From the IMG/VR virus record IMGVR_UViG_3300017987_000006, positions 1 through 64,000 of that record: a stretch of 64,000 nt of DNA. The stretch is one strand, 5' to 3'. The stretch comes from a virus. The position numbers were made by a program, and so were the translations under genes. Of the stretch, positions 2,914 through 42,154 are shown piece after piece. Position 1 is the first letter of the stretch. Every line of letters starts with the position of its first letter. The notes under the pieces were generated by a model. It ran no database searches, was not told where the DNA came from, and was given only the letters and a program-made list of their open reading frames with translations.

Positions 2914-3329
2914 AAAAGAAGAAGACACCGCCGGGCCGGTTCTTGATCAAGAGGCTTGATGCCATTCCCCCAGACGGCGGGCTCGATCTGACCAAGAAGC
3001 TGGTCAAGAACTTTTTGGCGATCAATGTGAAGTATGCTGGCGACCTGAAACAGCTCGCCGAGCGGTACGGGCTGCACTATCTTCGGTCCAAGAGAATGCG
3101 CAAGGCGGAGCTCGTGCAATGGATCGCCGATCATCATCCGGCAGTGCGGATGCTGGAGGGAAAGTACATGATCGGCGTCGATTGGGGTAGTCGGGAGGAC
3201 CTGTCGGCGTGTGTGGTTTACAAAATGGGGCCGGAGGGGGGACTGAGACTCGTTGCCATCAAGGAGGACAAGCGATGGACGAATATGATAGCGCAGCAGG
3301 AAGAGACAAGGAGTACGACGAAGCCTTGA
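2910..3329 (+). CDS. Hypothetical protein, possible Rho-N/HeH-like nucleic-acid binding segment
   Basis: GTGA overlap; DLKQLAERYGL...MRKAELVQWI. Confidence 0.5.
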   Translation: MKKKKTPPGRFLIKRLDAIPPDGGLDLTKKLVKNFLAINVKYAGDLKQLAERYGLHYLRSKRMRKAELVQWIADHHPAVRMLEGKYMIGVDWGSREDLSACVVYKMGPEGGLRLVAIKEDKRWTNMIAQQEETRSTTKP

Positions 3330-3766
3330 ACGAGAAGGCTCGGGGGATGCGGGGCAGGGATGGGGCGGACGTGCCGCCTTTCATGCGTGAGCGCGTGGCC
3401 TTCCTGAAGAAGATCCGGAACTCCCGGTTCCGCTGGCGGCCCTCTACCTACGGTTATGATCCGAACAAGTACAGCCCTGAGGTCGTGGAGGAGTTCGTGG
3501 GTGCTGTGGAGGAGACCCTGCCACCGGGTGCGTTCATGGCGCTGTTTGTGATCTTGGCCACCGGCCACGAGCCGATGCTGGGGTCGTTCGACGGGAGGGT
3601 GCAGAACGATATGAGATCGTTTTACGGGTTCTGGTTGGGGGTGAATGGGCGGACCAGGTCAAATATCCTCGACAAGATGCGGATCCGTTTGTATGAGGAG
3701 CAGCACAAGAAGTACGTCGAGGCCTTCCATAAGAAGGCCAGGGCGGAGGAGGCATCTGGAAAATGA
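3275..3766 (+). CDS. Hypothetical protein
   Basis: AAGGAGG SD at 3261-3267 before ATG 3275. Confidence 0.65.
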   Translation: MDEYDSAAGRDKEYDEALNEKARGMRGRDGADVPPFMRERVAFLKKIRNSRFRWRPSTYGYDPNKYSPEVVEEFVGAVEETLPPGAFMALFVILATGHEPMLGSFDGRVQNDMRSFYGFWLGVNGRTRSNILDKMRIRLYEEQHKKYVEAFHKKARAEEASGK

Positions 3767-4200
3767 TCTTCAATATCGGAGACCCGGTGTGGAACGCGGC
3801 CCTGGTAGAGAAGCTGGTCTATGTTTCTCACGAAGAGGCATCACATGCGCTCCAGCTCTACACAGAGGACGTGAAGGATGACATTGCGGCGAGGAAGGTG
3901 ATGGGGGCCCTGCCAGCTCGGGTGCGCATCCAGGAGAAGAATCTTTCGTCTTTGGCGGAGTTCTTTGTGCTTCAGACGTTCTTTCATCACCAGAAGCATT
4001 TGCAAGATCGGTGGGGCAATAGGCGAGTGATTTGGATCACAATGCAGGACGCACATGGAGAACCGGAGGAGTACGCACGGAGGGCCCACTTCTTGTTGTG
4101 GTCTGAGGAGGAGGATATGTTCAAGGGTGCGGAGTTGAAGCTGGAGAACGGAGTTGTCATCACCTTTGATCATCAACCGGGGGCGGAGGGAAGCAAATGA
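3763..4200 (+). CDS. Hypothetical protein
   Basis: ATGA overlaps at both ends. Confidence 0.65.
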   Translation: MIFNIGDPVWNAALVEKLVYVSHEEASHALQLYTEDVKDDIAARKVMGALPARVRIQEKNLSSLAEFFVLQTFFHHQKHLQDRWGNRRVIWITMQDAHGEPEEYARRAHFLLWSEEEDMFKGAELKLENGVVITFDHQPGAEGSK

Positions 4201-4727
4201 GCTTTGTAGAAGAGTTTGGAAAGATCGTAATCATCTTGCGGGCCCCACCAGGGGCCGGCAAGACGACATTTGCCTCGTTTCTACGCGAAATGATCAAGCA
4301 CACGCAGATCACCACGACATATGTCTCGATGGATGCCATCAGGGAATCAGAAGGGAGGAAGTTTTCCTACACCAACCTGCAGGAAGACGTACGGAAGATG
4401 GATAGAATGTTCGATGCGGCGGTGGAGGGCGGGATCAACATCATCATTCTGGACAATACTCACTCTCGAGAGTGGGAGTACGCCCGAAAGAAGGACAAGG
4501 CCGAGAGGTACGGCTACACGGTCTTCCTCATCGAGGTCCAGTCGGACTTCTGGACTTGCCTGCGACGGCAGAAGCACGGAGTCCCGTTCTACAAGATGCA
4601 GGAGATGTTCGATCGGTGGGAGTCACCAATTCGTCGTGGGAAAGATCGAATCAAGGACATGGAAGCTGAGTTAAACAACATCATAGAGGCATTCAAGCCT
4701 TCTACCAAATCGATGGAGAGCGACTGA
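4197..4727 (+). CDS. P-loop nucleotide/polynucleotide kinase (AAA_33, N4BP2/PNK-like)
   Basis: Walker A APPGAGKT, IIILDNTH, lid CLRRQKHGVP. Confidence 0.85.
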   Translation: MSFVEEFGKIVIILRAPPGAGKTTFASFLREMIKHTQITTTYVSMDAIRESEGRKFSYTNLQEDVRKMDRMFDAAVEGGINIIILDNTHSREWEYARKKDKAERYGYTVFLIEVQSDFWTCLRRQKHGVPFYKMQEMFDRWESPIRRGKDRIKDMEAELNNIIEAFKPSTKSMESD

Positions 4728-5449
4728 TGAAGACGATCGATGTGAAAGATGCTCGAGCAATCCTGGACGCGATGAAGCAGGCCCAGGAGGCCAAGGGGGG
4801 AGAGAAGGACAAGAAGAAGACCACAATGCCGACGAAGGAAGAGATCGAGGTGGCGGTGGCGTCCGTGGTGCTCGAGGAGCAGAAGACGTGGCCGGAGTGG
4901 ATCGTCGAGATCATCGGTGGTTGGACGCCCAGCAAGGCGTCATTTTCCAAGGGCGTGCCGTACGTCATTGGCGCGTACATGCACCACGCGTTGGAGCGAC
5001 TACGTGAAGAGACACACAAGAAGGTTCGGGAAACGGAGCTGGAATCGGTGAGGGAGATGGGGTCGGTCAGCATCGAGTTGAAGGAGAGGGAGGAGATGTT
5101 CAAGCAGTCGACGGCTGATACCATCTCCGATCTCGAGAAGGAGAGGAACAGCAAGCTCAAGCAGCTAGATAATCTGAGGGCTGAGATCCACGAGGAGTAC
5201 AACGAGCTTTTCAAGGCTCTTCGCGAAGTTGATCCCCCGGACGACATCCTAGAGCTGCGAGAGAAGAGGAAGTTCATCGAGAAGGAGTACGACGCCGCGG
5301 TGGACGAACTGGAGCTGGAGTACAAGGAGTTGAAGGAGCAGATCATAGCCATTGACGAGGCGAAGGAGAACTGGAACTCTAAGGGACGCAAGAAGAAGCG
5401 CAAAGCCGAGAAGGAAGAAGCTGGCGAGCAGGCCAAGCAGCAGGTATAA
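4727..5449 (+). CDS. Coiled-coil hypothetical protein
   Basis: E/K/L-rich heptad-like C-terminal half. Confidence 0.7.
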   Translation: MKTIDVKDARAILDAMKQAQEAKGGEKDKKKTTMPTKEEIEVAVASVVLEEQKTWPEWIVEIIGGWTPSKASFSKGVPYVIGAYMHHALERLREETHKKVRETELESVREMGSVSIELKEREEMFKQSTADTISDLEKERNSKLKQLDNLRAEIHEEYNELFKALREVDPPDDILELREKRKFIEKEYDAAVDELELEYKELKEQIIAIDEAKENWNSKGRKKKRKAEKEEAGEQAKQQV

Positions 5450-5457
5450 TCCGCCGC

Positions 5458-5856
5458 ATGGAGAAGCTCAGCTACGATGATCCCAAGCGTCCCAAGATCT
5501 TGGCACTGGACCTTGATGGGACGTTGTTGCACTACGACGGGTACTCCCCGGACATGTTCGGGGAGCCCGTTCGTGGCATGGCCCGCGAACTCGAGCGGAT
5601 TCGAGATGAAGGATGGAAGATCGTAATCTGGACGTGTCGAAAGGACACCCCAGAGCTGAGGAAGCACCTGAAGGACAATGAGGTGCCGTTCGATTACATT
5701 AACGATCATCCCTGGAACGGGCCGGACGACCCTCGGAAGATTCATGCTGACGTCTACGCAGACGATAAGGGATTGTCCTTCACTGGAATCGCGGATGGCT
5801 TCGCAGATCGTGTGCTACATCACCAGCCGTGGTGGCAGCAGGCCGCGTGGCTGTAG
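5458..5856 (+). CDS. Capless HAD-superfamily phosphatase
   Basis: Motif I DLDGT, motif II IWTCR, motifs III/IV K...ADVYADDK. Confidence 0.85.
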   Translation: MEKLSYDDPKRPKILALDLDGTLLHYDGYSPDMFGEPVRGMARELERIRDEGWKIVIWTCRKDTPELRKHLKDNEVPFDYINDHPWNGPDDPRKIHADVYADDKGLSFTGIADGFADRVLHHQPWWQQAAWL

Positions 5857-5876
5857 CGCACGATTTTAGGTGGGAT

Positions 5877-6170
5877 ATGGAACTGTTCAAGGAGCACGTC
5901 TTGGGGGATGACCTGTACGGTGTAGCGTTCGCACCGACGTCGTTTTTCGTTCTCAACTGGATGGCTGGTCTGGTTGAGATCCACGATATTATTTGGCTGC
6001 CGAGGAAGCAGGCGATGTTCTTCGTCGTCAGCAGCAAGGACAAGTCCGGCATCCTGTTCAAATCGGGGCTAATCAGCGGGACAAAGATCGGGGGCTTCAA
6101 GCCGTCGAAGCAGTCCATCATGGTCGAGTGGCCGAGGGGCCACCACATACTAGGAATCGGAGGTAACTGA
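5877..6170 (+). CDS. Hypothetical protein
   Basis: ORF fills gap; AGGTGG SD-like. Confidence 0.55.
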   Translation: MELFKEHVLGDDLYGVAFAPTSFFVLNWMAGLVEIHDIIWLPRKQAMFFVVSSKDKSGILFKSGLISGTKIGGFKPSKQSIMVEWPRGHHILGIGGN

Positions 6171-6583
6171 TGTGGACCATTCTCAGGGCCGTAACAGGGG
6201 AGAAGTTTCTCTGCAAGACAGAGGCAAACCTTCAGCAAGCAGCCATCGAGCGCAAGCCTGTCATGATCACGGAGGTGTACGAGGTCCTCTCGTTGAACAT
6301 GAACATGCCGGGTGGGCTCATGAAGCGCTTGACTCGGATCACCTTCATGGATTTTCAGGAGCGGGGACCGCTGCCAAAGATGTTCGTGGTCCCGGCGGGG
6401 TGGTACGAGCCAGACCAGGCCTTCATCGAGGCCCAGCTTCAGCAGATGAAACGCGACATGGAGCAGGCCGCAGAGCAGGAGAAGAAGATCATGGAGGAGA
6501 TCCAGCGCCAGCAGTCTCCTCTTGCTCAAGTGCACATGGTGCCGAAGATGAGTCCGGTCGACCCAAGGATGCGTCGCCGGTAG
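6170..6583 (+). CDS. Hypothetical protein
   Basis: GGAGGT SD; 1-nt stop/start overlap. Confidence 0.65.
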   Translation: MWTILRAVTGEKFLCKTEANLQQAAIERKPVMITEVYEVLSLNMNMPGGLMKRLTRITFMDFQERGPLPKMFVVPAGWYEPDQAFIEAQLQQMKRDMEQAAEQEKKIMEEIQRQQSPLAQVHMVPKMSPVDPRMRRR

Positions 6584-6609
6584 AACTCCGCCCAGGCTTC
6601 GGCCTGTGC

Positions 6610-6894
6610 ATGAATTGCAACAACCCAACGAAGGGCAGATACAACTACCGAGGTGTCATTGTCTGCTCTCACTGTTTCTCGCTCGCCCAGATGTGCGACA
6701 GGCGGGCGGTGAAGCAGGTGCGTGATTTACTCGCTGTCTATCGCGAGTCTCTTCGTGTGTCGCTCGCCAGCGGCAAGCTGCGCCCGTCCTCTCAGATCCC
6801 AGACAAGGACACTAAGGTGTCCAAGCTCCCGCCTCAGGAGGAGCTTCGGCGCGTGCTTCAGGGCCTCGCCGATATCAAAAAGCGATCCGAATAG
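6610..6894 (+). CDS. Zinc-finger hypothetical protein
   Basis: CMNC (first Cys just upstream of ATG 6610, so the start may be earlier) and CSHC. Confidence 0.55.
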   Translation: MNCNNPTKGRYNYRGVIVCSHCFSLAQMCDRRAVKQVRDLLAVYRESLRVSLASGKLRPSSQIPDKDTKVSKLPPQEELRRVLQGLADIKKRSE

Positions 6895-6902
6895 ATCGTC
6901 CG

Positions 6903-6915
6903 TTCTCGGTATAAG
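6903..6915 (+). promoter_or_regulatory. Candidate promoter motif (TC)GGTATAAG
   Basis: Intergenic, 35 nt before ATG 6950; recurs at 34499-34506 (+) and 50518-50527 (-) at similar distance from starts. Confidence 0.4.
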
Positions 6916-6949
6916 CTCTTTAAGAGACAATTTCAAAGGAGGACTTACA

Positions 6950-7444
6950 ATGTGTGCAGAGTTTTCTCTAATTTGTCCTCGGTGCTCAGCACCGCCCGAG
7001 GATGCTCGTTTGGCTGTTGTATCTGGGAGGTTTAGTGCTCGGAGTATGCCTTTAAACGATGACGGATTCAGTCCCACGGACGCGAGGGGCTTCGATACCG
7101 ATGATGAGGTGGTGCACTGCTCGATGTGTGATAGCCGGTTTCCTATCGGGGAATGCCTTATAGGTAATCACCTCGTTCATGCGGAAGAGTTGGAGATCTG
7201 GGGAATGGCGGATATGGGTGACGGGCGGCTGACAGCGACCACGGAGATCTTGGGCACTAATATGCACGTCACCTTCATCCGTGTGGAGAAGAACAGCAAC
7301 CACATCCAGATCGCTAAACATCCGATTGCACAGAACATGTATACGCATCTGTGCATGATGGATCCCGGAGGTCCCTTCCGGACGGTGCAGCTGGCTGATC
7401 GGGACGGAGAGTGGGTTATGATCATCACACCGTTTCAGGAGTAG
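6950..7444 (+). CDS. Zinc-ribbon hypothetical protein
   Basis: AAAGGAGG SD; CPRC...CSMC. Confidence 0.7.
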   Translation: MCAEFSLICPRCSAPPEDARLAVVSGRFSARSMPLNDDGFSPTDARGFDTDDEVVHCSMCDSRFPIGECLIGNHLVHAEELEIWGMADMGDGRLTATTEILGTNMHVTFIRVEKNSNHIQIAKHPIAQNMYTHLCMMDPGGPFRTVQLADRDGEWVMIITPFQE

Positions 7445-7448
7445 CACG

Positions 7449-7931
7449 ATGGCTAACAACTACATGCAGTTCAGCGAGAAGATCGACGGTTTGACGCCGG
7501 AGGCGGCAGAGTGGGTCGAGACCGTTCTGGGATTCCGGGATGACTACGAGGATGAGGAAGCGGCCAAGGCCGCACTGGCCGACTTGTTGGGGGTGGAAAA
7601 GGAGGAGCTGGCGGAGCTGGTGGACCTCGACATGGACTTTTGGCCTAACTTCGATTGGCAGGTGGAGGGAGCAAAGAAGAGCTCGTTGTGGCTCACGGAC
7701 AATGGCGAGAGCTTCGGATTCGACGAGCTCGTGCTGTTCGTTCACGCGCTGATCAAGAAGTGGATGCCTGACCACATCTTCACGATGACGTGGGCCGGCA
7801 CCTGCTCCAAGCCCCGGCTTGGGGAGTTCGGAGGGGGTTGGGCGGTGGTGACCAAGGATGTGGTGGACTACGAGGACACCTGGGCGGAGGTCAACGCCAG
7901 GGTCAAGAAGTACCAGAAAGAGGGAGCATGA
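7449..7931 (+). CDS. Hypothetical protein
   Basis: MANNYMQFSE...TWAGTCSKPRLGEFGGG; coherent codon style. Confidence 0.7.
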   Translation: MANNYMQFSEKIDGLTPEAAEWVETVLGFRDDYEDEEAAKAALADLLGVEKEELAELVDLDMDFWPNFDWQVEGAKKSSLWLTDNGESFGFDELVLFVHALIKKWMPDHIFTMTWAGTCSKPRLGEFGGGWAVVTKDVVDYEDTWAEVNARVKKYQKEGA

Positions 7932-7932
7932 G

Positions 7933-8460
7933 ATGATCGAGGCATTCAAGCCGGGAACGAGGGTACGGTTTGTTCTTTCACCTGGCATGGGGGGAGGTCT
8001 GGGGGGCAGGGCGAAGATCTCTGATAAGATCCCTACTGGGAAGTGGGACTGGAAGATTCCAGGATATTGGGGTGAGGGATTCTACTTGGTGGAGTCGGTG
8101 CCGGAGCAGCGGAAGATGCTGGTCAACGAAGACGATCTGGTGCTGGACGTCAACTTGGGCACGTCGGAGCCCAACCACTGCCGTTGGGGCACGAGGCACT
8201 TGTTCAGGCAGGGGATTTGTATCAGCCACGTGGCTGTAGGTGGTGTACTAGATCATGAAGACGGGAAGTTCGAGGTGTACTTGGCGGGGAACCCAAAGTC
8301 CACACACATCGGCACAGCTCCTACGATGGACAGAGCGAAGGTGACGGCATTGAGGTTCTTCACCAAGTATCCAGAGTTGGTGATCAAAGACCACGATGAG
8401 ATGGACTGGAAGAAGTTTTGGTCGACCAAGAAATCCTTGCAAGGACAAGAGGAGGAGTAG
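7933..8460 (+). CDS. Hypothetical protein
   Basis: GGGAG SD; abuts next gene. Confidence 0.6.
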   Translation: MIEAFKPGTRVRFVLSPGMGGGLGGRAKISDKIPTGKWDWKIPGYWGEGFYLVESVPEQRKMLVNEDDLVLDVNLGTSEPNHCRWGTRHLFRQGICISHVAVGGVLDHEDGKFEVYLAGNPKSTHIGTAPTMDRAKVTALRFFTKYPELVIKDHDEMDWKKFWSTKKSLQGQEEE

Positions 8461-9810
8461 GTGCTGTACAAACTGGAGCTGATGCGTGAGAAGATTCAGA
8501 AGGCGATCAGGACCCACCATATCCACATTCTCAAAGAGTTGAACGGAGCGCCACACGAGACCTACCTAGATTTTTCAAAAGCGTTGGGAGGCGTAGAAGC
8601 GGTTGTGGATGCGGTTATTGGAGCACACGAAGGAGATGTGCTAGAGGAGAGGGAGGCGGGGTCTGTTCTCAAGAAGAAGATTCAACTGCTAGAGGAAGAG
8701 CTCGCCGGGTTGGATGACGTCTGGGAGTCGAAACTGCACGACGCTATCATAGATCGTGCTCGGATCCTGCGAGATCGAAACCGTATGGAGGAGTTGATAG
8801 AGGACTTGGAGGGGCGGGTGCGGGAGTCTGCCAGAGCTGAGAAGGAGACCAGGCGGGAGTTGGGCAAGGCTGAGGAAGAGCGTGTGCGTGCCGTGCGCGG
8901 TAAAGCTGGTGCGGAGCAACGCCTGGAGCAGGAGAAGAGATCTTTGGAGGAGGCTCGTAAGGAACTGGTAAGGTTGCGGGCGGAGCTAGATCAATACAGA
9001 AGGGGCGATGCGCCGTATAAGGGCGTCGCAACGAGGAAGACCAGGGAGGCCAAGCAGCTCAGTCAACAGGTAAACGATCTTCGCAGGGAGATCTCCGATT
9101 ATGAAGATCTGTTAATCGCAGAGACTCCCACATCGAGCGAATATCTGGCCATGGTGCCGTCGTTCTCCGACACCATCAACGAAGACCCACCCACCCCAGA
9201 GGATAATGTGGTCTATTTGAGGCTTTGTGATGCCGTAGATTACATTTTGTCCACTCTGACTCCGAGGGAGGAGAAGGTATTGAGGATGCGATTTGGCATT
9301 GGCGAGAAGTCGGACCACACGTTAGAGGAGGTCGCGCGTGCATTTGGTTTAAGTAGGGAGCGTATTAGGATGATCGAGGCCAAGGCCATGCGCAAGCTAC
9401 GGAATCCAAGCAGGGCCAAATTTGTCAAGAGCTTCTTGGGAGATCATAGGGACGGATGGGTTGGACTTAGTGCTAGCAGGCGCAGGTGGGTAGGGAACAT
9501 TCAACGGTTGTGGTCAGTGGAGTGTTCCGCTGCCGAGACAAAGAAGAAAGAGAAGAAGAAGAAGAAGACGACGACAACAAGGAGAAGGGCTGTGGGGCAG
9601 AAGAGCGGACGAGGCAAGGAAGAGATGGTGAGATCGAAATTGCGCCGGATGATGATACGCAGGGGCGGGGTACCATACAGGGAGTTTGTGGAGAAGACTG
9701 GTATTGACATCACGACAGGCCAGTACGCTCGATGTCTACGCGCCGTGCGTGAGGAGAAGGGGATCTACGTGCCGCGCGGCGGGAAGAAGAAGAAGGGGGG
9801 TGTGCGGTGA
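8461..9810 (+). CDS. Coiled-coil protein with embedded RpoD-type sigma-70 region 4 domain and basic tail
   Basis: LSTLTPREEKVLRMRFGIGEKSDHTLEEVARAFGLSRERIRMIEAKAMRKLRNPSR at about 9247-9414; no region 2. Confidence 0.8.
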   Translation: MLYKLELMREKIQKAIRTHHIHILKELNGAPHETYLDFSKALGGVEAVVDAVIGAHEGDVLEEREAGSVLKKKIQLLEEELAGLDDVWESKLHDAIIDRARILRDRNRMEELIEDLEGRVRESARAEKETRRELGKAEEERVRAVRGKAGAEQRLEQEKRSLEEARKELVRLRAELDQYRRGDAPYKGVATRKTREAKQLSQQVNDLRREISDYEDLLIAETPTSSEYLAMVPSFSDTINEDPPTPEDNVVYLRLCDAVDYILSTLTPREEKVLRMRFGIGEKSDHTLEEVARAFGLSRERIRMIEAKAMRKLRNPSRAKFVKSFLGDHRDGWVGLSASRRRWVGNIQRLWSVECSAAETKKKEKKKKKTTTTRRRAVGQKSGRGKEEMVRSKLRRMMIRRGGVPYREFVEKTGIDITTGQYARCLRAVREEKGIYVPRGGKKKKGGVR

Positions 9811-38144: not shown

Positions 38145-39171
38145 GAAGGTTCTGCAGAGTAATGTACACCTCCAGCAGACCATCTCGGAAATGGTGAGGG
38201 ATTTCGACGCCCGGCGGAATGAGACCGAGAAGCGCATTTCTGAAAGCAACCAGCAGCTCTGGCGCAACCAGCAGGAGCAGAACGAGGGCCTGCGCATCGC
38301 TGAGAAACACGCAATGATCCAGCGACGTGTCTTCAATGATGCATTGGCTGGGTGCACGCGCGTCACGAGCATCGAGCGGAAGATCCAGGAGGGATCGGAC
38401 GAGGTGGAAGAGGTCCAGGTCATCGACTGGGACTGGTACGCCGAGCAGTTGATCAACAGCGCCGATTATAACGACTTCATCGTTGGCGTCCTGGTTCCGG
38501 AGGAGACCGTGAAGCAGAAGACCGAGCAGCGGTCTCAGCGCGCTCGTGCGCAGGTCCTGCACTACTGTGTCTCCAAGGCCCTGGCCAAGGATGAGGCAAA
38601 GCTCAGAGAGGCGCTGGAGGGGGATGGCCTGGAAGGTCTGCTCAAGGACTTCATGCCCAACGGCGTGGATTGGACGGACGAGATGAGTCTCGAGATGGAG
38701 GACATTGCCAAGGCCGGTCTGATGCTTTGGGAGCAGAAGAAGCAGGAAGCCATCAAACGGGCCAAGAAGGTCAGGATCCACAGCGCCATCGATAAGCTGG
38801 TCAGGGTTATGCCAGACGAGTCCATCAGGAAGACGGCAGATCGCATCGAGGCTGGAGAGCCCATCCTGAAGGATAAGGATGGGAACGAGATCGAGCTGAG
38901 CGATGAAGAGGCCAAGGAGGCCGCCGAATTGATGCGTTCCAAGATCAACGATCCCGAAGCCATCGAGAAGGCCAAGAATGAGCTGATGGAGGAGACGGCC
39001 GCTGTGGCCAAGATAGCCACAGAGGCCCAGGAAGCCATCGCCAAGGGGGACGCTGAGACGGCCGGTAGGAAGATGGCTGAGCTGGAAGAAAAGGTCGAGG
39101 AGGCCGAGGCCAAGGCCCCTGATGACCCAAACAAGCAGTTCCCGGAAGGGGCTTCGATCTTCGGAGGATAA
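38089..39171 (+). CDS. Coiled-coil hypothetical protein
   Basis: 360 aa, E/K/A-rich. Confidence 0.7.
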   Translation: MSKRKSKPKRNAKPLTARKKVLQSNVHLQQTISEMVRDFDARRNETEKRISESNQQLWRNQQEQNEGLRIAEKHAMIQRRVFNDALAGCTRVTSIERKIQEGSDEVEEVQVIDWDWYAEQLINSADYNDFIVGVLVPEETVKQKTEQRSQRARAQVLHYCVSKALAKDEAKLREALEGDGLEGLLKDFMPNGVDWTDEMSLEMEDIAKAGLMLWEQKKQEAIKRAKKVRIHSAIDKLVRVMPDESIRKTADRIEAGEPILKDKDGNEIELSDEEAKEAAELMRSKINDPEAIEKAKNELMEETAAVAKIATEAQEAIAKGDAETAGRKMAELEEKVEEAEAKAPDDPNKQFPEGASIFGG

Positions 39172-39172
39172 C

Positions 39173-39361
39173 ATGCCGCGTATCATCAGGGGGACAGCCG
39201 AGAAGAAGTACAACATCGTCAAGACCCAACATCGTTCAAACATCAACAAGATGCGTTGCCAGGGCTGCAGGTTGGGTTACGCAGAGCGTGTTCAGACGGC
39301 CGGCGGGTGGGTCTATCGTTGCAACCGGTGCGGCCGGGAGTACACTGTAGACAAGCTGTAG
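39173..39361 (+). CDS. Zinc-ribbon protein
   Basis: GGAGG SD; CQGC...CNRC; last gene of + strand run. Confidence 0.7.
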   Translation: MPRIIRGTAEKKYNIVKTQHRSNINKMRCQGCRLGYAERVQTAGGWVYRCNRCGREYTVDKL

Positions 39362-39470
39362 AACTAAAGAGAGGTCGGTCGTCCTCTCTAAACCCGAGGG
39401 GTTTGGCTGATTGCGGTCTGGTCTTTACGTCACAGAGCACTCAAGTACCCACCTGATTAATCATTTTGTA

Positions 39471-39500
39471 GCTAAGAAAAGACAGCCCGGCCGGGCTGCC
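39471..39500 (-). terminator. Intrinsic terminator closing the pentamer array on the - strand
   Basis: - strand reads GGCAGCCC-GGCC-GGGCTGTC-TTTTCTT (8-bp stem with one G-U, then U-tract); no U-tract follows on +. Confidence 0.75.
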
Positions 39501-39502
39501 TC

Positions 39503-40589
39503 AGGATGGCATGGATTGAGAAGGAGTGTCAGAGCGATCGGGTCTGGATCAGATCGTCGAACTGGTGGGGACCGGACCGCGTTGGGTTGTCGCCACGATC
39601 AGGTCTGGCAGGATATGGACTGTCGAGTTGGTTAGATAAGGGCTGTCGCGCCGTGACGGACTGCGCCGTGCGGAGGGGGGACGTCGACTAGGCGCGAGCG
39701 GGAGTGGTCAGGCATGGTTCGTCTGATCGCGGGGGACCGGGCAGGAGAAGGCTTGTCAGATCGAGAGGGATTGGCCTGTTCCAGCTCGTCGCGAAGGCTT
39801 GGCTTATCAGTTAGGCCCGGCCAGGTCTGTCAGCTGCGTGGTGCGTGAGGGCCGGATCGGGCATGTCGAATCGGATGACGACGAGGTGCGGGTGGGCCAG
39901 TCAGCTTGGGTGGGGTTGAGGAGCGACGGCATGGGATGTCGGCCGGGGCGGGCGTGAACTGGAGCGGGTTGTCGGCTTTGCCAGCACCGGCTCGCAACGG
40001 CTCGTAATGAATCGGACCGTCGAAGTGGATGGGCTAGGAGGGGAGAGGGGAGGCTTGTCAGCACGGGGTGAGGTGGATAGGTCAGGAATGTCGAGCAGTC
40101 TCGGCTGGTTTAGGGTTGGCTTGTCAGGCAGGAGCGGTCCGGTGTAGATCGGATTGTCCAGTCGGTTGGAACAGGCAAGGCATGTCGAGCAGGGAAGGCG
40201 CGGCTGATCTTGGCCCGTCGATTAGGATGGGTAGGGATTGGCTTGTCGGAATGGATCGAATGGGCTTGTCTATGCGGACGGGGACCGAGCGGACCAGGAG
40301 AGGTGAGTCGATCTGAAGTGGATGGGCGCGAACCGGAAGGGTCTGTCGAAAGGTTTGGGATGGGCGGGGACAAGACAGGTGCGTCAGAATGAGGGGGCTC
40401 GAGTGAGAGCGAGTGGGTGAGTCGACCCGGCTTGGTACGCGGTGGTCCGGCATGTCAGCTCGAGAGGAACCGGCTTGGTCTGTCGGACTGGTGTGGTGTG
40501 TATGGGACTGTCTCGTCGGGATCGGGTTGGTTTGATTTGGCGAGGTGTGTCAGGAGGGTCTAAGGTGGGTGGGACCGTGTTGGCTTGTA
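39503..40589. ncRNA. Non-CRISPR array of about 33 unique units built from G(G/A)NNN pentamers closed by GTC (candidate guide-RNA array)
   Basis: Hand parse: 27 of 32 delimited units are exactly 5n+3 nt; 141 of 159 pentamers in those units start with G, 93 with GG; no credible ORF; begins about 20 bp past the stop of a Cas7-like gene. Confidence 0.8.
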
Positions 40590-40611
40590 CGGGATAGTCT
40601 CAGTGTCTTGT

Positions 40612-41433
40612 CTAGGCCGCCTTGCCCTTTTTGGGAACCTTCGTCTTGGGAGCCTTCGTCTTGGGCTTGGGCAGCGAGCCCTTCTGGAGCTCCTCGACGG
40701 TGAGGAACTTGACGCGGCCGAAGCCCTGGGACCTCGAGCAGCCGAAGCCGTTATCTTGCGCCAGCTGCATGCAGTAGGTCAAGAACTCCTCGCTCATCCG
40801 CTTATCCTTCGGATCGGCAAACCATATCTCGAACTCGATGTAGGTACCGGGTTCCACGTAGTCGTGAAACTTGATCGTACTGCGCGGCCCCTGGGGGCCG
40901 ATGACGTGCGCCACCGTCTCTTCATGCCCGTCCGGCTCCACCAGCCGCTTCCTGTCCGCTTCCTTGTGTCCCTTGTCGTATAGGTAGACGCGGTCTGGGT
41001 GCTCGCAGCCCCGGATGAAGAATGAGTGCTGTAAGATCTGACGAACGCCGCGGTGTACGTTGGTCAGCCCCAGCACCGTTGCGGTCTCCTTGAAGCCGGC
41101 CTTGAGTTGCCGCGTCTCCAGAAAGATGCCATGTCCTTCCGGTTCGATCTTGTCCGGCTCCGCCTTGAACCCCGTCCAGGACTTGAGCTTCGCCTTCTCG
41201 CTCTCCTCTATGTCGTCATCGGACGACATCTCCTGGACGCGGGCTCTGGCCGCCTCCACGGTCTCGTCCTTGACCAGGCCCTTGCGGTGTCGTGCCTCGA
41301 GCATGGCCAGCTCGGATTCCGGATGTTTTGGCCAGCCGCCGAGCAGCCGGTTGGCCGTGACCATTGTCACCTTGTACTTCGTGTAGATGTTGACGTCGTG
41401 TTCGCGAACTAGTTCCTCAAAAGTCCTCTCCAT
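40612..41433 (-). CDS. Solitary Cas7-group RAMP-like protein
   Basis: KVTMVTANRLLGG (beta1 + G loop), IFLETRQLKAGFKE (cf. IPGSSLKGALR), DYVEPGTYIEFEI, Gly-rich loop GFGCSRSQGFGRV; AAGGAG SD. Confidence 0.8.
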   Translation of the reverse strand: MERTFEELVREHDVNIYTKYKVTMVTANRLLGGWPKHPESELAMLEARHRKGLVKDETVEAARARVQEMSSDDDIEESEKAKLKSWTGFKAEPDKIEPEGHGIFLETRQLKAGFKETATVLGLTNVHRGVRQILQHSFFIRGCEHPDRVYLYDKGHKEADRKRLVEPDGHEETVAHVIGPQGPRSTIKFHDYVEPGTYIEFEIWFADPKDKRMSEEFLTYCMQLAQDNGFGCSRSQGFGRVKFLTVEELQKGSLPKPKTKAPKTKVPKKGKAA

Positions 41434-41467
41434 TTGAGATCTCCTTGTTATTGAGGTTGTTGTGAAA

Positions 41468-41484
41468 GGGAGCTTAGCGCTCCC
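41468..41484 (-). terminator. Hairpin between upstream gene and Cas7-like gene, weak terminator
   Basis: GGGAGC-GCTAA-GCTCCC followed by only TTTC on - strand. Confidence 0.35.
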
Positions 41485-42154
41485 AAAGAATTGTGAGTTC
41501 GTCGTCCTGTACGTGGATCCATCCGCCAGACGTCTTGTTCTGGTATACTTGCACTACTTGCTGGCACCAGGGCGGCGGCGGGCCGTTCCACATGGACAAG
41601 GCCCCTTCGAGCCTGACAAACTCTCCGGCGTCAGGCTCGAAACATCCCACAGGTAGCGTGACCCGCGGCTTGGGAGTCCTGGGCGTCCCCCAGGTCTTCG
41701 ATTTCGTCTTCGATTCCAGCAGCGCGATGTAGAAGTTCCTCAATGGGATACAAGCCCCTTTCTCGATCAATGTGACCTGTTTCTCTTTCCACTCGTCCTG
41801 CCACAGCTCCTCATCGATCTCGTGCAGCGTCCCATCCCGTCCGGCTTCTACGATCTTCCCCTCGTGTAGGAAAGCGTAGAGGTTTCCTCCTTTGCACCAA
41901 CCGAGGGCGGGGATCAAATCGCGCGGAACCATCTGTCCGATGTCGTCCCACTCCACCAGGTGCATGTAGAACGTTCTGTCCTCTGCACCACTCGCCCAGA
42001 CCTTGCGCCCATTGACGCTGATCTTCACATGACAGAAGTGTCCCAGCTGCTTGACGCGTCCTGAGCGCTTGATGATGCCGATCATGGGCAAATCCGGTTT
42101 GGGGCCTTCAACCCCAAACCAGATCTGCTTGACGTACCAACTGTACTCACTCAC
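41474..42154 (-). CDS. Hypothetical protein (Trp-rich)
   Basis: GTGA overlap; 226 aa coherent ORF. Confidence 0.65.
   Translation of the reverse strand: MSEYSWYVKQIWFGVEGPKPDLPMIGIIKRSGRVKQLGHFCHVKISVNGRKVWASGAEDRTFYMHLVEWDDIGQMVPRDLIPALGWCKGGNLYAFLHEGKIVEAGRDGTLHEIDEELWQDEWKEKQVTLIEKGACIPLRNFYIALLESKTKSKTWGTPRTPKPRVTLPVGCFEPDAGEFVRLEGALSMWNGPPPPWCQQVVQVYQNKTSGGWIHVQDDELTILWER

What the first reader, a model, noticed from the sequence alone, without database searches (positions are those of the whole stretch)
39503..40589. 1.1 kb array of unique units with 5n+3 lengths: (G-R-NNN)n-GTC
Hand parse of the + strand. Examples: 39559 gaact ggtgg ggacc ggacc gcgtt gggtt GTC; 39903 agctt gggtg gggtt gagga gcgac ggcat gggat GTC; 40022 gaagt ggatg ggcta ggagg ggaga gggga ggctt GTC; 40220 gatta ggatg ggtag ggatt ggctt GTC; 40424 gaccc ggctt ggtac gcggt ggtcc ggcat GTC. 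Of 32 fully delimited units, 27 are exactly 18, 23, 28, 33, 38 or 48 nt; the other five are 34-39 nt. Two closers are variants (ATC at 39806, GTA at 40587). In the regular units 141 of 159 pentamers start with G and 93 with GG, and most exceptions start AG. The last pentamer is nearly always GG-led (junction GGNNT-GTC-R). No two units are identical, so this is not a satellite; fixed scaffold plus variable positions looks like stored information. The 3-nt closer shifts phase every unit, so tandem-repeat and CRISPR finders would probably miss it. Caveat: I chose boundaries among GTC occurrences by eye.
Basis: seen in the sequence. Interest (0 to 1): 0.95.

Follow-up and report, generated by a model that had tools for sequence, protein, structure and literature searches.

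The report
Phage VIPR guide-RNA array
The 1.1 kb stretch is real and non-random: it is the guide-RNA array of a phage VIPR system (a CRISPR relative first described in 2026 preprints) beside its lone Cas7-like protein gene, so it is a new member of a known kind, odd only in that its G-rich strand runs opposite to the gene.

Summary
Observation confirmed. Window 39503-40611 is non-coding and 43% G on the + strand. It is built of pentamers G-(G/A/T)-N-N-N broken about 30 times by a +3 phase shift, mostly at GTC. The parse scores z about 19 over dinucleotide shuffles and is unique in the 178 kb phage genome.

This matches VIPR systems: a Vipr RAMP plus pentamer-repeat vrRNAs, published in 2026 (bioRxiv 10.64898/2026.04.26.720920 and .720927). 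That paper lists NNNGG repeats and tail-less "staggered" arrays as variants. This scan has already logged VIPR systems in at least 23 other genomes.

One thing is unsettled. In this RAMP clade the G-rich strand is always antisense to the gene. In the canonical family the count is 110 to 0 the other way. Gene-sense terminators and arrays that abut the RBS suggest the guide may be the C-rich strand, GAC(NNNYC)n.

No RNA data and no targets were found.

The parts
39503..40611 (.). Guide array of about 30 units. On the + strand it reads (G-R-NNN)n closed by GTC. On the gene's (minus) strand it reads GAC(NNNYC)n. The commonest 8-mer in gene sense is GACAAGCC. Which strand is the RNA is unresolved; I favour the minus strand at about 65%.
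40612..41433 (-). Gene for a 273-aa Cas7/Csm3-like RAMP (Vipr-like). It has a G-loop GFGCSRSQGFG, invariant residues R234, S235 and Q236, and a Lys/Pro-rich C-terminal tail. It is the only RAMP found in the 178 kb genome.
39472..39501 (-). Intrinsic-terminator-like hairpin (AGGCAGCCCGGCCGGGCTGTCT) followed by TTTCTTAG. It reads on the gene's strand and lies immediately after the last array unit.
39368..39389 (-). A second terminator-like hairpin on the minus strand, between the array and the convergent + strand gene block that ends at 39361.

Best explanation
The stretch is the guide-RNA array of a VIPR-type system (Viral Interference Programmable Repeat), and the neighbouring 273-aa Cas7-like RAMP is its effector.

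Proposed mechanism, by analogy with the characterised SUSP1 system:
- The array is transcribed and cut, or used, as about 30 short units.
- RAMP protomers polymerise along each unit, one protomer per pentamer. They hold the one or two fixed letters and expose the variable letters.
- The variable letters read a gapped target in the DNA of rival phages, satellites or prophages and silence it.

In this clade each pentamer has only two constrained letters and three free ones. Units are short, 3-9 pentamers. They follow one another without a structured tail and are separated by a 3-nt closer (GTC on the + strand, GAC on the gene strand), which resets the phase.

Shown here: the array statistics, the RAMP fold, the conserved gene-array linkage and strand relation, and unit-sized gain and loss between related phages.

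Inferred only: expression, RNP formation, processing at the closer, and DNA targeting.

Which strand is the guide is open. I put about 65% on the gene's own C-rich strand and about 35% on the G-rich + strand.
For: RAMP identity:
- A profile of 20 homologues hits Csm3 chains 4n0l and 4qts at E about 1e-5 over the G-loop region.
- The AF2 model has pLDDT 84.
- The top Foldseek hits are all Cas7 family, E about 1e-6, probability 1.0.

Gene-array linkage:
- All six independent loci fetched by exact protein look-up have a 5-nt-periodic array on the gene's strand downstream. It is directly after the stop codon in most and about 2 kb away in L006.
- So do most of the 30 IMG/VR loci with 22-45% identical relatives, and Microcystis phage Mae-JY09.

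Link to canonical VIPR:
- hhalign of this clade against the canonical Vipr family, which includes SUSP1 Vipr, aligns 137 columns colinearly from helix 1 to the G-loop (E 6e-4, probability 28%).
- The canonical HMM hits one clade member at E 5.7e-4.

Literature:
- Vipr is a RAMP that binds one 5-nt repeat per protomer. vrRNAs are pentamer repeats with fixed and hypervariable letters.
- NNNGG repeats and tail-less staggered arrays are listed variants, and the loci lack other cas genes.

Context and turnover:
- No CRISPR-like repeats occur in the window, and the Pfam RAMP model finds nothing in the genome.
- L003 and L007 differ by unit-sized indels of 23, 32 and about 20 nt, while the flanks and the terminator are conserved.
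Against: - No RNA data exist for this phage, so transcription, strand and processing are untested (one search lists only DNA runs).
- Sequence similarity to published Vipr proteins is marginal. There is none against SUSP1 Vipr alone.
- The residues that read G1 and G2 in SUSP1 (D177, W178) are C-S in this clade.
- The third pentamer letter is not a pyrimidine as in GGY.
- No conserved accessory (vap) gene was seen.
- No target was found under any of the tested pairing rules.
- The G-rich strand is antisense to the gene, unlike the canonical family.
Confidence: 0.85

Rival explanations
1. It is the same system, but the guides are the G-rich + strand RNAs, (GRNNN)n-GUC, exactly as the reader parsed them. 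They would be transcribed from their own promoter, or by read-through from the + strand gene block that ends at 39361, and would run convergent with and antisense to the RAMP gene.
For: - All published vrRNA consensus motifs are G-based: GGY/NN, NNNGG, YNNNG, NNNNG. The + strand reading (G 93%, G 59%) fits NNNGG.
- The conserved element GGCTTGTC would then sit at the 3' end of each unit, like the published 3' tail.
- In the window and in L009 the distal neighbour genes point in the G-sense direction.
- C is mildly enriched at pentamer position 3 in some loci.
Against: - In the canonical family the arrays are strictly co-oriented with the gene: 110 tracts against 0 in 80 loci. Applied here, the same rule gives the C-rich strand.
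- In several loci the array ends 0-40 nt before the RBS or start codon (L021, L022, L040, L016, L036). The gene's mRNA must therefore run through it.
- Gene-sense hairpin plus T-tract terminators close the array in the window, L003, L006 and L007. No G-sense terminator lies between the array and the gene.
- The terminator is 100% conserved between L003 and L007.
- In L006 and Mae-JY09 the array lies among genes that all point the gene's way.
Confidence: 0.3
2. The RAMP and its RNA do not guide anything. The RNP is a decoy or inhibitor, for example a Cas7-like protein on a mimic RNA that poisons the host's type III or type I CRISPR complexes, or a sponge for rival phages' G-rich vrRNAs.
For: - RNA-based anti-CRISPRs that mimic repeats exist (PMC10651486, listed).
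- A CC every 5 nt is complementary to the GG scaffold of canonical vrRNAs.
- L017 carries a canonical Vipr with G-type vrRNAs right beside a RAMP of this clade with a C-type array.
- No targets were found.
Against: - The three free letters per pentamer carry almost no constraint, and units differ from one another. That fits stored specificity and does not fit a mimic of one fixed partner.
- A sponge needs no phase-resetting closers.
- The co-occurrence with a canonical system was seen in only one or two of 32 loci.
Confidence: 0.07
3. The stretch is a non-guide feature of the transcript or the DNA. Candidates are a giant C-rich Rho-utilisation or termination buffer between convergent gene blocks, or a DNA array of protein-binding or primase (GTC) sites.
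For: - The minus-strand RNA would be 42% C and 19% G with YC every 5 nt, which is rut-like.
- The stretch lies where two gene blocks converge.
- GTC is the T7 primase recognition triplet (my own knowledge, not tested here).
Against: - The array travels with the RAMP gene in about 29 of 32 loci, whatever the neighbours, and lies upstream of the gene in many.
- Period 5 with a +3 reset has no counterpart in rut or primase sites, but it is the published signature of Vipr-bound RNA.
Confidence: 0.03

Closest known systems
VIPR systems with NNNGG-type repeats and 'staggered' (tail-less, abutting) vrRNA arrays (bioRxiv 10.64898/2026.04.26.720920, methods section and Fig. S18 legend)
   Same: - A lone RAMP gene with no other cas genes, carried by a phage.
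- A long flanking non-coding array of pentamer repeats with fixed G letters and hypervariable letters.
- Units that follow one another, so that the end of one marks the start of the next.
   Different: - I could read only the text and figure legends, not the figures, so identity with a published type is not established.
- Here the G-rich strand is antisense to the RAMP gene in all loci.
- The units are only 3-9 pentamers long.
- The phase reset is +3 nt, whereas the legend speaks of a 1-nt overlap.
Type II VIPR of Escherichia phage SUSP1 (KT454805.2) and the Pseudomonas fulva prophage
   Same: - A RAMP with a G-loop and a Cas7-like core.
- A 5-nt RNA period.
- Arrays immediately upstream or downstream of the gene.
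- Carried by a phage.
   Different: - SUSP1 has a Vipr of 195 aa with G-loop CGVGDWRPRFGRF, and vrRNAs of 9-16 GGY/NN repeats plus a structured 3' tail of about 40-60 nt.
- Its arrays are on the gene's own strand and it has a vap gene.
- Here the RAMP is 273 aa with G-loop GFGCSRSQGFGRV. Each pentamer has two fixed and three free letters, there is no tail, closers are GAC/GTC, about 30 units are contiguous, the G strand is antisense, and no vap gene was recognised.
Csm3/Cmr4 (Cas7) backbone of type III CRISPR-Cas effector complexes
   Same: - It is a filament-forming RNA binder.
- crRNA lengths vary in steps of one protomer footprint, as unit lengths do here in steps of 5 nt.
- crRNAs carry an 8-nt 5' handle; compare GACAAGCC if the guide is the gene strand.
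   Different: - Type III uses a 6-nt period, CRISPR repeats and spacers, and Cas10, Cas5, Cas6 and Cas11 partners.
- None of these is present here.

Membership tests
[not shown]
   [not shown]
VIPR system (Vipr + vrRNA) | Sequence homology to published Vipr proteins (SUSP1 YP_009199429.1 / X1U2U4 lineage) | tested here: inconclusive
   No hit to SUSP1 Vipr alone. The profile-profile comparison against the canonical family, SUSP1 included, gives E 6e-4 at probability 28%, colinear over 137 columns. The canonical HMM hits one clade member at E 5.7e-4.
VIPR system (Vipr + vrRNA) | A flanking non-coding array of tandem pentanucleotide repeats with conserved and hypervariable positions (GGY/NN or the related NNNGG, YNNNG or NNNNG) | tested here: met
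   G 93% at position 1, G/A/T at position 2, and at most 0.06 bits at each of the other three positions. The parse scores z about 19 against shuffles. This matches the NNNGG variant named in the paper.
VIPR system (Vipr + vrRNA) | The gene-array association is conserved across relatives | tested here: met
   About 29 of 32 non-redundant loci have a nearby 5-nt-periodic array. Of the three that lack one, L019 runs off its contig just after the gene, the L043 match is only partial, and L033 is unexplained.
VIPR system (Vipr + vrRNA) | vrRNAs are expressed and bound by the Vipr protein | not testable with these tools
   No RNA run holds the stretch. The complex-prediction tool takes no RNA.
VIPR system (Vipr + vrRNA) | The variable letters match DNA of other mobile elements under a periodic skip rule | tested here: inconclusive
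   17 rule variants were run on 450 kb of related phage DNA, and 6 rules on the phage's own genome. Nothing exceeded shuffled controls. Two exact-pattern scans of IMG/VR gave 2 hits, which is chance level, and 0 hits.
VIPR system (Vipr + vrRNA) | An accessory vap gene next to vipr | tested here: inconclusive
   The neighbours have no Pfam or PHROG family, apart from a weak zinc-ribbon match for the 79-aa ORF at 39122-39361. They differ between loci. No conserved partner was recognised, but no systematic clustering was done.
Type II VIPR (SUSP1-like) | vrRNAs of 9-16 GGY/NN repeats followed by a structured invariant 3' tail, on the gene's own strand | tested here: not met
   Units have 3-9 pentamers. 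The third letter is not restricted to pyrimidines. Only 3 nt separate units. The G strand is antisense: 3040 nt against 340 nt in this clade, compared with 50 nt against 5210 nt in the canonical family.
CRISPR-Cas type III | A CRISPR repeat-spacer array with Cas10, Cas5 and Cas6 partners, and a 6-nt crRNA periodicity | tested here: not met
   There are no direct repeats of CRISPR type, only a single RAMP, and a period of 5, not 6. cas10 was not searched for specifically.

The most novel reading that the evidence does not exclude
In this RAMP clade the guide may be the C-rich strand, co-transcribed with the gene. Each unit would be a 5' GAC(A) handle followed by (NNN-Y-C)n, ending at an intrinsic terminator after the last unit.

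That would give a second scaffold alphabet for VIPR, Y-C in place of G-G-Y. It would be read by a different G-loop (C-S-R-S-Q in place of D-W-R). There would be three programmable letters per protomer and a crRNA-like 5' handle instead of a 3' tail.

If the published NNNGG types belong to this clade, their consensus would then have been read from the wrong strand.
Probability: 0.55. Interest if true: 0.55.

Novelty: new member of a known kind. Interest (0 to 1): 0.35.

Why it matters
VIPR systems are a newly recognised relative of CRISPR, and possibly its ancestor. They read DNA through a gapped repeat code and are of interest as very small programmable DNA binders.

This locus adds a divergent RAMP clade with about 30 to 90 very short guides per phage. 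It also has a cultured carrier, Microcystis phage Mae-JY09.

The strictly inverted strand relation is the testable point. If the guide is the C-rich strand, the scaffold letters and the number of programmable letters per protomer are not fixed features of the family. That would bear on how the code evolved and on how it might be engineered.

If the guide is the G-rich strand, this clade makes its guides antisense to its own effector mRNA, which would itself need an explanation.

Tried and rejected
- Rfam on 38500-41500, both strands, E <= 1: no family, so no hammerhead between units.
- TRF found no array here.
- blastn of the stretch against 50,697 phage records: no match.
- Single-protein searches of IMG/VR with the two flanking proteins: no relatives. 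An alignment was needed.
- Pfam and PHROGs on eight neighbouring ORFs: nothing but a weak zinc-ribbon hit.
- Sequencing runs: no RNA holder listed; four DNA runs from sediment and seawater hold the stretch.
- Early ideas dropped once the gene linkage was seen: a Rho rut site, a CsrA- or TRAP-type protein sponge, a G-quadruplex array, and primase or iteron sites.
- Codon signature of the variable triplets: stop codons are only weakly depleted. The observed/expected ratio is 0.77 overall and 0.98 in the close relatives, so no reading frame can be inferred.
- Target search:
  - Exact spaced-word search under 17 rule variants on 450 kb gave counts equal to shuffled controls.
  - The one suggestive hit was an L002 unit against window 42032-42067. 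It has a 19-of-20 core at a 4-nt step, but the flanking blocks do not match, so I treat it as chance.
  - Best-site mismatches in the phage's own genome equal the controls.
  - The IMG/VR pattern TTNCANCCNTCNACNTCNATNTCNCC gave 2 hits, about the chance expectation, and neither lies in a long open frame.
  - The contiguous 21-mer gave 0 hits.
- Complex prediction was not used. It takes no RNA, and a protein-only oligomer would not settle anything claimed here.

Full report
**What is there**

The window is the first 64 kb of a complete 178,259-bp virus record with direct terminal repeats. Positions 39503-40611 hold no ORF longer than 109 aa. On the + strand the stretch is 43% G and 19% C.

The stretch lies where a block of + strand genes, ending at 39361, meets a block of minus-strand genes whose last member ends at 40612.

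G autocorrelation peaks at lags 5 and 10, then at 18, 23 and 28. This is what a 5-nt period with recurrent +3 shifts predicts. The lag-5 signal is 0.25-0.32 against a genome mean of -0.01 (sd 0.05), and nowhere else in the genome reaches it.

**Is it more than chance?**

I ran a five-phase Viterbi/EM parse that is told nothing about GTC. It finds pentamers with G at position 1 (93%) and G/A/T at position 2 (59/20/17%). The other three positions are essentially free, at no more than 0.06 bits each.

There are 32 phase jumps, and 28 of them equal an insertion of 3 nt. The likelihood gain is 77.3 nats, against 3.4 +/- 3.9 in 100 dinucleotide shuffles.

In 500 shuffles it gives 0.9 matches covering 12 nt. 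Over a slightly shorter span of the array, 19 of 25 +3 jumps lie at a GTC. Only the exact unit boundaries are soft.

**The neighbour gene**

I tested that claim.

- Pfam and PHROGs give nothing.
- A profile of 20 homologues hits Csm3 chains at E about 1e-5 over the C-terminal third, including the glycine-rich loop GFGCSRSQGFG.
- An AlphaFold2 model (pLDDT 84) matches only Cas7-family chains. Foldseek gives E about 1e-6 at probability 1.0.

The protein family is large: 479 cluster representatives at E < 1e-3. It is the only RAMP in this genome. The window has no CRISPR-type repeats.

**The array travels with the gene**

Exact look-ups of six homologues, 34-67% identical, returned contigs in which the gene is followed on its own strand by a C-rich, 5-nt-periodic stretch:

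| Locus | Array length |
|---|---|
| L002 | about 2.9 kb |
| L003 / L004 | 0.5 kb |
| L006 | 1.5 kb, lying about 2 kb downstream of the gene |
| L007 | 0.6 kb |
| L008 | at least 1.6 kb, cut by the contig end |
| L009 | 1.8 kb |

An alignment-based scan of IMG/VR added 30 loci with 22-45% identical relatives. Nearly all have such arrays, either just after the stop codon or just before the RBS.

The cultured Microcystis phage Mae-JY09 has one too.

The commonest 8-mer in three independent arrays, read in gene sense, is GACAAGCC. A (C)GAC closer with a +3 shift recurs in many loci, though not all.

Two close relatives, L003 and L007, differ by whole-unit indels, while the flanks and the terminator are conserved.

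**What it is**

A literature search led to the VIPR preprints. In these systems a phage-encoded RAMP, Vipr, polymerises on vrRNAs made of pentamer repeats, one protomer per repeat. It sequesters the fixed letters (GGY) and presents the variable letters, which read double-stranded DNA with a periodic skip.

Seven types are described. They include repeats of the form NNNGG and 'staggered' arrays in which one vrRNA ends where the next begins. A later preprint reports 99 clusters of period-5 arrays, 21 of them with non-canonical letters.

The present locus meets the structural criterion, the array criterion and the linkage criterion. I therefore file it as a VIPR-type system.

Direct sequence homology to SUSP1 Vipr is not detectable. 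A profile of the canonical family, which does include SUSP1 Vipr, aligns colinearly with this clade at E 6e-4 but only 28% probability. I treat that as suggestive, not as proof.

This scan has already logged VIPR systems in at least 23 other genomes.

**What differs, and the open question**

In SUSP1 the GGY/NN tracts lie on the gene's own strand. In 80 IMG/VR loci of the canonical family I counted 110 such tracts in gene sense and none antisense.

In the clade of this window the relation is inverted. Tracts of GGNNN cover 3,040 nt antisense and 340 nt in gene sense. Most of those 340 nt belong to L017 and L018. L017 carries a second, canonical Vipr gene (ORF 3161-3736) with its own G-type vrRNAs. 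L018 holds G-type tracts at its contig start with no canonical gene recovered.

Three facts argue that the array is transcribed with the gene, which would make the RNA C-rich, GAC(NNNYC)n:

- In several loci the array ends 0-40 nt before the RBS or start codon.
- Hairpin plus T-tract terminators in gene sense close the array in the window (39472-39501), L003, L006 and L007, and none in the opposite sense lies between array and gene.
- That terminator is perfectly conserved between L003 and L007.

Against this, every published consensus is G-based, and the + strand reading fits NNNGG.

The G-loop residues that read the two guanines in SUSP1 (D177, W178) correspond by the weak A1-A2 alignment to C-S in this clade, and are followed by invariant R-S-Q. 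A change of base specificity is therefore possible but not shown.

My odds are about 65:35 for the gene strand. No RNA run holds the stretch.

**Targets**

I found none.

- Spaced-word searches under 17 pairing rules on 450 kb of related phage DNA gave counts no higher than shuffled controls.
- Best-site searches in the phage's own genome gave the same result.
- Two exact-pattern scans of IMG/VR gave chance-level results.

These searches were small and required exact or near-exact matches, so they say little.

**Verdict**

The kind of system has been in print since April 2026. This is a new member, from a divergent RAMP clade. Its one unexplained feature, the strand relation, is worth a simple RNA-seq experiment.

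Noticed in passing
L017:3161-4896 (IMGVR_UViG_3300033150_000513): Two RAMP systems sit side by side. A canonical Vipr-like ORF (191 aa, G-loop GIGRWRPR) has gene-sense GGC/NN vrRNAs at 3745-3940 and 4800-4890. A RAMP of this window's clade (3974-4636) is followed by a C-rich GAC-punctuated mini-array at about 4640-4790.
   Followed up: partly
L013 = PP395641.1 37713-38976 (Microcystis phage Mae-JY09): A cultured, sequenced cyanophage carries a RAMP of this clade (29% identity) annotated as hypothetical. A 420-nt C-rich array punctuated by CGAC follows it, ending in a long hairpin. This phage is a practical system for RNA-seq.
   Followed up: partly
window 40631-40665: A 15-nt tandem repeat (2.3 copies) lies inside the 3' end of the RAMP gene. 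It encodes the Lys/Pro-rich tail KPKTKAPKTKVPKK. Relatives also end in basic tails of varying length.
   Followed up: no
window 39122-39361 (+): A 79-aa ORF with two CxxC pairs (weak Pfam Zn_ribbon_4 match, E 2.6e-4) is the last gene of the + block and faces the array. I did not test whether it is an accessory protein of the system.
   Followed up: no
L005 (ENA k141_763875, 54379-65233): The RAMP gene and its downstream small genes appear twice as a perfect inverted duplication (5001-7303 and 7274-9576). This looks like an assembly palindrome, not biology. The sister contig L006 has the normal layout with the array.
   Followed up: no
window 42032-42067 (inside ORF 41474-42154, minus strand): One unit of the L002 array matches this gene next to the RAMP gene at 19 of 20 letters, if four of every five guide letters are read contiguously. 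The flanking blocks do not match, and the count is at chance level for the search done.
   Followed up: partly
A1 alignment, residues H136, H176, R184, K188 of the window protein: Two histidines and two basic residues are invariant across 20 homologues, outside the G-loop. A Cas6-like, metal-independent cut at the GAC closer is conceivable but untested.
   Followed up: no
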